DNA of 64,000 nt from Escherichia coli (GCF_003790525.1 NZ_CP033635.1); one strand, 5' to 3'. Counted from the stretch's first letter, positions 1,658 to 2,746 are shown. Numbers and translations are program-made. Notes: generated from the sequence alone by a model not told the origin.

Positions 1658-2746
1658 ATGCGTAAGCAGTGGCTCGGGATCTGCATCGCGGCAGGAATGC
1701 TCGCGGCATGTACAAGCGATGATGGTCAGCAACAGACGGTAAGTGTACCGCAGCCTGCGGTATGTAACGGCCCCATAGTTGAAATTAGCGGGGCGGACCC
1801 GCGTTTCGAACCACTGAACGCGACGGCAAATCAGGATTACCAGCGCGACGGTAAAAGCTACAAAATCGTGCAGGATCCGTCTCGATTTAGCCAGGCGGGA
1901 CTGGCGGCAATCTATGATGCCGAACCCGGCAGTAACCTGACGGCCTCTGGCGAAGCTTTCGATCCGACACAGTTGACGGCGGCCCATCCAACGCTTCCGA
2001 TCCCCAGCTACGCCAGAATCACTAACCTGGCTAACGGGCGAATGATCGTGGTGCGCATTAATGATCGCGGTCCTTACGGCAACGACCGCGTTATTTCGCT
2101 TTCTCGCGCGGCAGCTGACCGTCTTAACACGTCAAACAACACCAAAGTTCGTATCGATCCGATTATTGTCGCCCAGGATGGTTCGCTTTCTGGTCCTGGT
2201 ATGGCCTGTACCACAGTTGCCAAACAGACTTACGCCCTGCCTGCACCTCCCGATTTAAGCGGCGGCGCAGGAACAAGTTCAGTGTCTGGCCCGCAGGGTG
2301 ACATTCTTCCGGTCAGTAATTCGACGCTAAAAAGCGAAGATCCGACTGGCGCGCCGGTAACCAGCAGCGGTTTCCTCGGCGCACCAACGACCTTAGCGCC
2401 TGGTGTTCTGGAAGGCAGCGAACCAACGCCTGCACCACAGCCCGTTGTTACAGCTCCGTCGACAACGCCTGCAACCTCGCCTGCAATGGTGACACCGCAA
2501 GCCGCCTCGCAAAGCGCCAGCGGCAACTTTATGGTGCAAGTCGGGGCCGTTAGCGATCAGGCTCGTGCGCAACAGTACCAACAGCAACTGGGACAGAAGT
2601 TCGGCGTCCCCGGTCGCGTAACTCAAAATGGCGCGGTCTGGCGGATCCAGCTTGGCCCATTCGCCAGCAAAGCCGAAGCCAGTACCTTGCAGCAACGTTT
2701 GCAAACCGAAGCCCAATTACAGTCATTTATTACCACCGCGCAGTAG
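1658..2746 (+). CDS. rlpA: Septal ring lytic transglycosylase / rare lipoprotein A
   Basis: 362 aa; lipoprotein signal (LAACTS), Pro/Thr/Ser-rich linker, C-terminal SPOR-like domain. Confidence 0.95.
   Translation: MRKQWLGICIAAGMLAACTSDDGQQQTVSVPQPAVCNGPIVEISGADPRFEPLNATANQDYQRDGKSYKIVQDPSRFSQAGLAAIYDAEPGSNLTASGEAFDPTQLTAAHPTLPIPSYARITNLANGRMIVVRINDRGPYGNDRVISLSRAAADRLNTSNNTKVRIDPIIVAQDGSLSGPGMACTTVAKQTYALPAPPDLSGGAGTSSVSGPQGDILPVSNSTLKSEDPTGAPVTSSGFLGAPTTLAPGVLEGSEPTPAPQPVVTAPSTTPATSPAMVTPQAASQSASGNFMVQVGAVSDQARAQQYQQQLGQKFGVPGRVTQNGAVWRIQLGPFASKAEASTLQQRLQTEAQLQSFITTAQ

What the first reader, a model, noticed from the sequence alone, without database searches (positions are those of the whole stretch)
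2230..2520. Pro/Thr/Ser-rich low-complexity linker in RlpA
About 95 residues in the middle of rlpA are strongly enriched in P, T, S, A and G (for example PTPAPQPVVTAPSTTPATSPAMVTPQAA), typical of a disordered linker joining the lipoprotein/DPBB part to the SPOR domain. Such tracts are prone to length variation between strains.
Basis: seen in the sequence. Interest (0 to 1): 0.1.

Follow-up and report, generated by a model that had tools for sequence, protein, structure and literature searches.

The report
Disordered Pro/Thr/Ser linker in RlpA
The flagged stretch is the flexible, proline/threonine/serine-rich tether joining the two folded domains of the E. coli outer-membrane lipoprotein RlpA; it is an ordinary, already-recognised feature, and its length is almost the same in every strain.

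Summary
Window 2230-2520 encodes residues 191-288 of rlpA (1658..2746 +, 362 aa; E. coli SMS-3-5, between mrdB and dacA). P+T+S+A+G make up 69% of the tract against 40% in the rest of the protein. It is the most P/T/S-rich 98-aa window among all long ORFs in the 64 kb.

It lies between Pfam DPBB_1 (79-166) and SPOR (287-359). AlphaFold gives pLDDT about 50-59 and no secondary structure for 201-289, against 89 or more for the flanking folds. The linker reading is therefore supported.

Two refinements:
- Residues 191-200 belong to a conserved, confidently folded extension of the DPBB core.
- The tract is not uniform. Two conserved islands (DxxPxSNxTL at 214-224; GAPVxSSGFLGAPxxLxxGVLExSEP at 231-256) sit between hypervariable segments.

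Length variation between strains exists but is rare. Of 5,424 complete E. coli genomes, only five differ by 12 nt or more. All five differ at one 12-nt unit (PATS), giving 358 aa in 3 genomes and 366 aa in 2. Variation within E. coli is mostly by substitution: 8 of 10 variable residues lie in the tract, with pN/pS 0.17. Across the RlpA family the inter-domain spacer ranges from 22 to 348 aa.

Verdict: an ordinary, known feature of low interest.

The parts
1658..2746 (+). rlpA coding sequence (362 aa plus stop). It starts 10 nt after the mrdB/rodA stop and lies upstream of dacA.
   Evidence: ORF list. NCBIfam equivalog NF007953, 616.8 bits against a cut-off of 201. 100% identical to rlpA of E. 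coli SMS-3-5, NC_010498.1.
1658..1711 (+). Lipoprotein signal peptide with lipobox LAAC (Cys18).
   Evidence: Read from the translation. C18 is at least 90% conserved in 102 homologues. An N-terminal helix at 4-18 appears in the model. The outer-membrane lipoprotein status comes from the literature.
1778..2257 (+). Folded core, residues 41-200. It comprises Pfam DPBB_1 (79-166, window 1892-2155), N-terminal strands and a conserved C-terminal extension (167-200).
   Evidence: Pfam hit at E = 5e-21. Block mean pLDDT is 82-98 for residues 41-190 and 76 for 191-200. Column identity is 0.62 for 167-200 against 0.63 for the DPBB domain. Foldseek hit 4avr with TMt 0.89.
2258..2521 (+). Disordered inter-domain linker, residues 201-288. 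This is the real extent of the finding.
   Evidence: Block pLDDT is 49-59 with no secondary structure between 188 and 290. Column identity is 0.14-0.32. Composition. Eight of ten amino-acid-polymorphic codons among 8 E. coli alleles lie here.
2297..2329 (+). Conserved island 1 within the linker, residues 214-224 (DILPVSNSTL; consensus D[VI]x[PA][IV]SNxTL).
   Evidence: Alignments A2 and A3. The island is kept in representatives down to about 50% overall identity, including Tatumella.
2348..2425 (+). Conserved island 2 within the linker, residues 231-256 (GAPVTSSGFLGAPTTLAPGVLEGSEP). P256 is invariant in alignment A2.
   Evidence: A regular expression for the motif matches 15 of the 28 other sequences in A3. 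The flanks cannot be aligned.
2426..2521 (+). Hypervariable Pro/Thr/Ala tract, residues 257-288.
   Evidence: Lowest entropy in the protein, 2.9 bits. It is unalignable and varies in length between genera.
2466..2486 (+). Short slippage site CGCCTGCAACCT-CGCCTGCAA: a 12-nt unit encoding PATS followed by a 9-nt partial copy. It is the only length-polymorphic site found among complete E. coli genomes.
   Evidence: Zero-unit alleles (358 aa) occur in NCTC9064, A30 and ET565. Two-unit alleles (366 aa) occur in 2013C-4830 and 2012C-4227. E. whittamii RlpA also has the 358-aa form.
2516..2734 (+). SPOR domain, residues 287-359. It binds peptidoglycan glycan strands that have lost their stem peptides ('denuded' glycans).
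   Evidence: Pfam PF05036 at E = 3e-17. pLDDT 96-98. Foldseek hits 1x60 and 6i09. The E. coli RlpA SPOR domain (283-362) has a Kd of 5.1 uM for denuded glycans (bioRxiv 10.1101/2022.07.01.498525).
2230..2526 (-). Antisense 98-aa open frame coinciding with the tract. It is a by-product of composition, not a gene.
   Evidence: ORF list. In 42% of 2,000 synonymous re-codings of the same peptide, the antisense open stretch is at least as long.

Best explanation
Residues 201-288 of RlpA form an intrinsically disordered Pro/Thr/Ser/Ala/Gly-rich tether. It connects the outer-membrane-anchored DPBB module (residues 41-200) to the C-terminal SPOR domain. The SPOR domain docks on denuded glycan strands at the division septum. 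The tether lets the two modules engage peptidoglycan, or partners, at variable distance and orientation. Its high proline and low hydrophobic/charged content keeps it expanded and unfolded.

Because it needs no fixed fold, its sequence drifts faster than the domains, and between distant taxa its length changes freely. Within E. coli both its length and two embedded motifs are held by purifying selection. The only recurrent length change is slippage of one 12-nt PATS unit.

Shown here: domain boundaries, composition, predicted disorder and the conservation pattern. Inferred: the tether mechanics.
For: Identity, context and boundaries:
- RlpA equivalog hit and mrdB-rlpA-dacA gene order.
- The tract lies between DPBB_1 (79-166) and SPOR (287-359).

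Predicted disorder:
- AlphaFold with a 102-sequence alignment gives block pLDDT of 49-59 and no secondary structure for 201-289. It gives 82-98 for 41-190 and 96-98 for 291-360.
- Foldseek matches only the DPBB and SPOR modules.

Composition:
- The bias is extreme against the window background.

Variation across the family:
- In 92 family representatives carrying both domains, the spacer runs from 22 to 348 aa (median 86) and is generally PTSAG-rich.

Variation within E. coli:
- pN/pS is 0.17 in the tract, 0 in DPBB and 0.03 in SPOR.
- 8 of 10 variable residues lie in the tract, Fisher p = 6e-4.
- 5,419 of 5,424 genomes show no indel of 12 nt or more.

Literature:
- SPOR domains are commonly attached through disordered low-complexity regions (PMC6895207).
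- DedD's equivalent region was shown to be disordered by NMR (PMC7642682).
Against: - Disorder is predicted, not measured. Low pLDDT is only a proxy.
- Two conserved islands (214-224, 231-256), a pN/pS well below 1 and near-fixed length within Enterobacteriaceae (spacer 130-136 aa) show the tract is more than a passive spacer.
- A paper on P. aeruginosa RlpA labels part of the inter-domain region an 'expansin-type domain' (PMC9712689).
- The cellular role of E. coli RlpA is itself unclear. It has no detectable lytic transglycosylase activity and its deletion causes no division defect. What the tether serves is therefore inferred.
Confidence: 0.85

Rival explanations
1. The tract is mainly a carrier of short linear binding motifs. 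The conserved islands D[VI]xP[IV]SNxTL and GAPVxSSGFLGAPxxLxxGVLExSEP would recruit a periplasmic or inner-membrane partner, such as the FtsK periplasmic loop, a class A PBP or another septal factor. The variable flanks would only be spacers. This complements the tether model rather than excluding it.
For: - The islands persist in many 50%-identity cluster representatives, including Tatumella (Erwiniaceae), while the flanks cannot be aligned.
- Island column identity is 0.32 against 0.14-0.20 for the flanks.
- One homologue (P0130) repeats the GGFL core three times.
- Seven of the 8 E. coli amino-acid polymorphisms in the tract fall outside the islands.
- E. coli RlpA cross-links in vivo to FtsK periplasmic-loop residues, and the contact region on RlpA was not mapped (PMC6113214).
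- E. coli RlpA is thought to have a non-enzymatic role.
Against: - No partner or binding has been shown for these residues.
- AlphaFold gives the islands the same low pLDDT (50-55) as their flanks.
- The motifs are absent from Xenorhabdus-like and more distant RlpA proteins, so they are lineage-restricted.
- The enrichment of polymorphisms outside the islands is not statistically significant on 8 alleles.
- One rare public E. coli variant deletes island 1 (P0089), and two others delete part or all of island 2 (P0091, P0112).
Confidence: 0.3
2. The tract is a hypermutable repeat locus whose length changes often between strains and is used adaptively, as in a contingency or VNTR-type locus.
For: - A 12-nt unit with a 9-nt partial second copy at 2466-2486 gives alleles of 358, 362 and 366 aa.
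- The 358-aa form also occurs in E. whittamii.
- Rare singleton in-frame deletions of 20-51 aa within the tract exist in public data.
Against: - TRF finds no tandem array.
- Only 5 of 5,424 complete genomes differ by 12 nt or more.
- A30 and NCTC9064 carry identical alleles and the same protein accession, which suggests shared descent rather than recurrent change.
- All changes are in frame, so there is no on/off switching.
- The large deletions are singletons from draft or metagenome assemblies with only 2-6 nt of microhomology, and may be artefacts.
Confidence: 0.03
3. The inter-domain region is a folded expansin-type glycan-binding domain, as drawn for residues 196-246 of P. aeruginosa RlpA.
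For: - The annotation appears in PMC9712689.
- Residues 167-200 of the E. coli protein are conserved and are modelled as strands packing on the DPBB barrel.
Against: - For residues 201-288 there is no predicted secondary structure and pLDDT is about 50.
- The tract has 17% proline, a single aromatic residue and very few hydrophobic residues.
- Indels are frequent between genera.
- No structural match covers the region.
Confidence: 0.03
4. The signal belongs to a gene on the opposite strand, the 98-aa ORF at 2230..2526 (-).
For: The ORF's coordinates coincide almost exactly with the finding.
Against: - An antisense open stretch of this length arises in 42% of synonymous re-codings of the same peptide.
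- It has a TTG start.
- The sense frame is under clear purifying selection and belongs to a full-length, family-wide gene.
Confidence: 0.01

Closest known systems
RlpA (rare lipoprotein A) of E. coli K-12 and the RlpA family (NCBIfam NF007953 / TIGR00413; DPBB_1 + SPOR architecture)
   Same: This is the same gene. It matches the equivalog model end to end, has the same mrdB-rlpA-dacA context, and its DNA is 97-100% identical to rlpA in 5,424 E. coli genomes. It differs from the MG1655 protein by one residue, A283V, which lies in the tract.
   Different: Nothing of substance. This allele (SMS-3-5) is one common protein variant, seen on at least 1,000 contigs.
Periplasmic linkers of the other E. 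coli SPOR proteins (FtsN, DamX, DedD)
   Same: Each is a long, low-complexity, unstructured segment that delivers a C-terminal SPOR domain to septal denuded glycans. DedD's was shown to be disordered by NMR (PMC7642682; bioRxiv 10.1101/2022.07.01.498525). A weak FtsN-model hit spans residues 262-351 of RlpA.
   Different: Those linkers hang from an inner-membrane helix. RlpA's connects two periplasmic modules of an outer-membrane lipoprotein. FtsN's linker carries a characterised functional motif (the E domain). No function is assigned to the RlpA islands.
P. aeruginosa RlpA (PA4000), a lytic transglycosylase with a SPOR domain
   Same: It shares the lipoprotein-DPBB-spacer-SPOR architecture. 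The SPOR fold matches 6i09 and 6i05.
   Different: The P. aeruginosa spacer is shorter (about residues 190-263), and part of it has been annotated as expansin-type. The P. aeruginosa protein is catalytically active, whereas E. coli RlpA is reported inactive with a degenerate site. The enterobacterial islands were not seen outside Enterobacterales.
Pro/Thr/Ser-rich inter-domain linkers of secreted glycan-active enzymes (for example cellulase CBM-catalytic domain linkers)
   Same: They share the composition type, the extended flexible tether between a catalytic-type module and a glycan-binding module, and length that varies between species. This comparison rests on general knowledge and was not tested here.
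   Different: Those linkers are often O-glycosylated and repetitive. There is no evidence of either here (TRF negative).

Membership tests
RlpA (NCBIfam NF007953 equivalog) | Full-length match above the curated cut-off | tested here: met
   616.8 bits against a cut-off of 201, covering 1-362 of 362 positions.
RlpA (NCBIfam NF007953 equivalog) | DPBB_1 domain followed by a C-terminal SPOR domain | tested here: met
   PF03330 at 79-166 and PF05036 at 287-359. Both folds were recovered by AlphaFold and Foldseek.
RlpA (NCBIfam NF007953 equivalog) | Lipoprotein signal peptide with a lipobox cysteine | tested here: met
   MLAAC with Cys18 in the translation. C18 is at least 90% conserved. No dedicated signal-peptide predictor was available.
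RlpA (NCBIfam NF007953 equivalog) | Conserved position downstream of mrdA-mrdB and upstream of dacA in Enterobacteriaceae | tested here: met
   ORFs in the window and RefSeq annotation of nine other E. coli loci.
RlpA (NCBIfam NF007953 equivalog) | Lytic transglycosylase activity on denuded glycans | not testable with these tools
   The conserved NDRGP motif (N135, D136) is present. The literature reports the E. coli protein as inactive.
Intrinsically disordered inter-domain linker | Compositional bias towards disorder-promoting residues and depletion of aromatic and hydrophobic residues | tested here: met
   PTSAG 69%, one aromatic residue in 98, binomial p about 1e-12.
Intrinsically disordered inter-domain linker | No predicted stable structure | tested here: met
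   pLDDT 49-59 and no helix or strand for residues 201-289. No structural neighbour covers the region.
Intrinsically disordered inter-domain linker | Faster sequence and length evolution than the flanking domains | tested here: met
   Column identity is 0.14-0.32 against 0.51-0.63 for the domains. The spacer is 22-348 aa across the family. pN/pS is 0.17 against 0-0.03. Exception: two conserved islands.
Intrinsically disordered inter-domain linker | Experimentally demonstrated disorder | not testable with these tools
   No solved structure covers the tract.
Strain-variable tandem-repeat (VNTR / contingency) tract | Array of tandem repeat units | tested here: not met
   TRF returns no array at a minimum score of 30. 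Only one 12-nt unit plus a 9-nt partial copy is present.
Strain-variable tandem-repeat (VNTR / contingency) tract | Frequent length differences between strains | tested here: not met
   Five of 5,424 complete genomes differ by 12 nt or more. Of 100 sampled rows, 98 have the same span. Indels shorter than 12 nt cannot be excluded below roughly 3% frequency.
Expansin-type domain (as annotated in P. aeruginosa RlpA) | Independently folded beta-rich domain between DPBB and SPOR | tested here: not met
   No secondary structure is predicted for residues 188-290. Residues 167-200 pack on the DPBB core instead.
Short linear motif (SLiM) in a disordered region | Short conserved island flanked by non-conserved disordered sequence | tested here: met
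   Islands 214-224 and 231-256.
Short linear motif (SLiM) in a disordered region | Demonstrated binding partner | not testable with these tools
   An FtsK cross-link to RlpA is known, but the RlpA contact site is unmapped.

The most novel reading that the evidence does not exclude
The two conserved islands inside the disordered tether are short linear motifs. They are DxxPxSNxTL at residues 214-224 and, above all, GAPVxSSGFLGAPxxLxxGVLExSEP at residues 231-256. Through them the catalytically inactive enterobacterial RlpA would bind a septal partner across the periplasm, for example the FtsK periplasmic loop to which RlpA cross-links. That would give E. coli RlpA a scaffolding or signalling role and would explain why linker length is held constant in Enterobacteriaceae.
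Probability: 0.2. Interest if true: 0.4.

Novelty: already known. Interest (0 to 1): 0.08.

Why it matters
It matters little in itself. This is the expected flexible spacer of a well-annotated cell-envelope lipoprotein, and its near-constant length in E. coli makes it useless as a strain marker.

Two modest points are useful:
Five of 5,424 genomes differ, all at one 12-nt slippage site.
- The tract contains two conserved motifs that no paper I could search assigns a function to. They are cheap mutagenesis targets for anyone asking what the enzymatically inactive E. coli RlpA does at the septum.

Tried and rejected
- **Tandem repeats.** TRF found none at a minimum score of 30. The repeat finder gave only short two-copy matches. 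The 9-nt repeat that matters surfaced only from the allele comparison.
- **Counting alleles by identity band.** Junction-specific queries were confounded by split alignments. I used single-piece full-length matches and record spans instead, and cross-checked against the five records in the 90-95% band.
- **Antisense ORF 2230..2526.** Rejected as a compositional by-product.
- **Folded 'expansin-type' domain for residues 201-288.** Rejected on the AlphaFold and Foldseek results.
- **PDB sequence search.** Only DPBB relatives were found, and nothing covers the tract.
- **Papers not held.** Arends 2010 and Jorgenson 2014 were unavailable. PMC10561026 uses rlpA only as a marker insertion site.
- **Searches deliberately not run.** I skipped a genome-contig scan and a second large protein search. 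The 50%-identity representatives and named 90% clusters already answered the between-species question. A linker-only search would have been swamped by E. coli variants.
- **Fused-chain AlphaFold of island peptide plus FtsK N-domain.** Considered but not run, because without a paired alignment the result would not be interpretable.

Full report
**What is there.** The window is E. coli SMS-3-5 (NC_010498.1, 100% identity over rlpA). The ORF 1658..2746 (+) encodes a 362-aa protein lying 10 nt after the rodA/mrdB stop and upstream of dacA. It matches the NCBIfam RlpA equivalog end to end, at 616.8 bits against a cut-off of 201. Pfam places DPBB_1 at residues 79-166 and SPOR at 287-359. The finding's coordinates, 2230-2520, correspond to residues 191-288, and the quoted peptide sits at 256-283.

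- The tract is 17% P, 15% S, 13% T, 13% A and 10% G. PTSAG is 69% against 40% in the rest of RlpA, and the tract has one aromatic residue and few charges.
- The background, taken from all 45 ORFs of at least 200 aa in the 64-kb window, is PTSAG 34% and PTS 16%. Against it, binomial p is about 1e-12.
- rlpA is the only ORF in the window holding any 98-aa window with PTS of 40% or more.
- At the DNA level there is no tandem array (TRF).
- The antisense ORF that coincides with the tract (2230..2526, -) is what this amino-acid composition produces. In 42% of synonymous re-codings the antisense open stretch is at least as long.

**Anatomy.** An AlphaFold model built on a 102-sequence alignment gives high confidence for residues 41-190 (block means 82-98) and 291-360 (96-98). 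Residues 201-289 get only 49-59 and no secondary structure. Foldseek against the PDB matches only the two modules: DPBB to 4avr (TMt 0.89), and SPOR to CwlC 1x60 and P. aeruginosa RlpA 6i09/6i05. No solved structure covers the tract.

In an alignment of 17 Enterobacterales RlpA proteins (39-86% identity), residues 167-200 are as conserved as the DPBB domain, with mean column identity 0.62 against 0.63. I169, G179, G181, L194 and P198 are invariant. The first ten residues of the finding therefore belong to the folded core, and the linker proper is residues 201-288, window 2258-2521.

The linker is not uniform. Two islands are retained in many representatives of 50%-identity clusters, including Tatumella (Erwiniaceae):
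- D[VI]x[PA][IV]SNxTL at residues 214-224.
- GAPVxSSGFLGAPxxLxxGVLExSEP at residues 231-256.

The segments at 201-213, 225-230 and 257-288 are unalignable and variable in length.

rlpA is present in 5,424 of 5,426 complete E. coli genomes at 97-100% identity.
- In two evenly spaced samples of the ranking, 39 of 40 and 59 of 60 records have exactly the query's span. The exception both times is NCTC9064.
- With a 351-nt linker query, only 5 records fall below 95% identity.
- Junction-specific queries identify them. NCTC9064, A30 and ET565 lack 12 nt, giving 358 aa. 2013C-4830 and 2012C-4227 have an extra 12 nt, giving 366 aa.
- All five changes are at one site, window 2466-2486: CGCCTGCAACCT followed by CGCCTGCAA. 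That is a 12-nt unit encoding PATS plus a 9-nt partial copy, with unit count 0, 1 or 2.
- A30 and NCTC9064 carry identical rlpA sequences, which suggests shared descent.
- E. whittamii RlpA has the 358-aa form.

Its frequency for indels of 12 nt or more is about 0.1%. Smaller indels were not seen in 98 sampled genomes, which bounds them at roughly 3% or less.

In the 15-billion-protein collection, a few singleton in-frame deletions fall partly or wholly in the tract: -20, -27, -32 and -51 aa (P0089, P0091, P0093, P0112). They have 2-6 nt of microhomology. Each comes from one draft or metagenome contig, so each may be a rare mutation or an artefact.

**Substitutions.** Among eight diverse E. 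coli alleles, 8 of the 10 codons with amino-acid polymorphism lie in residues 191-288 (Fisher p = 6e-4). Synonymous polymorphism is not enriched there (p = 0.25). pN/pS is 0.17 in the tract, 0 in DPBB and 0.03 in SPOR. The tract is therefore the most relaxed part of the protein but remains under purifying selection. Seven of the eight changes fall outside the two islands.

**Between taxa.** Among 92 representatives of the family that carry both domains, the spacer between my HMM-defined domain ends is 22-348 aa (median 86) and is usually PTSAG-rich. Within Enterobacteriaceae (Escherichia, Citrobacter and a Klebsiella-labelled record) it is 130-136 aa by the same measure, so length is stable at short evolutionary range.

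**Mechanism.**
- Shown here: an outer-membrane lipoprotein signal (LAAC, Cys18), a folded DPBB core, an 88-residue tract predicted to be disordered, and a SPOR domain.
- From the literature:
  - SPOR domains bind denuded septal glycans, and the E. coli RlpA SPOR domain (283-362) has a Kd of 5.1 uM.
  - SPOR domains are typically attached through disordered low-complexity regions.
  - DedD's equivalent region is disordered by NMR.
  - E. coli RlpA lacks lytic activity, and its deletion causes no division defect.
  - E. coli RlpA cross-links to the FtsK periplasmic loop.
- Inferred: the tract is a flexible, expanded tether. From general polymer estimates I put its reach at a few nm typically and about 30 nm fully extended; I did not compute this here. 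The tether would uncouple the position of the SPOR anchor from that of the outer-membrane-tethered DPBB module. The conserved islands may be partner-binding motifs, which is a secondary hypothesis.

**Comparison and novelty.** This is the known rlpA gene with its known architecture. The linker resembles those of FtsN, DamX and DedD, and the Pro/Thr-rich linkers of glycan-active enzymes. The 'expansin-type domain' drawn for the inter-domain region of P. aeruginosa RlpA is not supported for E. coli residues 201-288. The PATS +/-1 unit polymorphism and the two conserved islands are small details that I did not find described in the searchable literature. They do not change the classification: already known, low interest.

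Noticed in passing
window 2297-2329 and 2348-2425 (RlpA residues 214-224 and 231-256): Two conserved sequence islands, DILPVSNSTL and GAPVTSSGFLGAPTTLAPGVLEGSEP, sit inside the otherwise hypervariable disordered linker. They are kept down to about 50% overall identity, for example in Tatumella. No function for them was found in the searchable literature.
   Followed up: partly
protein P0130 (458-aa RlpA homologue, JGI metagenome), linker region: The GGFL core of island 2 occurs three times in this homologue (GGFLNK, GGFLNQ, GGFLNKPTPLPAGVLE). Motif duplication is what one might expect of a functional linear motif.
   Followed up: no
window 2095-2104 and 2182-2191 (DPBB-encoding part of rlpA): A 10-nt direct repeat, TTCGCTTTCT, is spaced 87 nt apart. 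Public E. coli proteins show both the reciprocal 29-aa duplication (P0001, 391 aa) and the deletion (P0092, 333 aa) between these repeats. Each is a singleton and would disrupt the end of the DPBB fold.
   Followed up: partly
proteins P0094 (369 aa) and P0100 (362 aa, labelled Klebsiella pneumoniae): These look like mosaic rlpA alleles. P0094 is E. coli-like up to about residue 258 and then Citrobacter-like. P0100 is the reverse, with a foreign first half of the linker and an E. coli-identical 256-288. The cause could be recombination within the linker, mislabelling or chimeric assembly.
   Followed up: no
window 2230-2526 (-): A 98-aa antisense ORF with a TTG start coincides almost exactly with the finding's coordinates. 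A synonymous re-coding test shows it is expected from the composition.
   Followed up: yes
window 57297-57452 (-) and 54963-55004 (+): Rfam matches above gathering score to the sok antitoxin RNA (81 bits) and the ES036 sRNA (44 bits). The sok match suggests a chromosomal hok/sok-type toxin-antitoxin locus nearby.
   Followed up: no
window 9305-9753 (-), 22732-22840 (+), 26603-26696 (-): Rfam matches above gathering score to the cspA-type thermoregulator 5' UTR (136 bits), the rnk leader (125 bits) and the sRNA STnc70 (44 bits).
   Followed up: no
E. coli genome collection: Two of 5,426 complete genomes give no rlpA match. Two rlpA matches lie on plasmid records, and a few chromosomes (for example EPI300) hold two places. 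Neither was examined.
   Followed up: no
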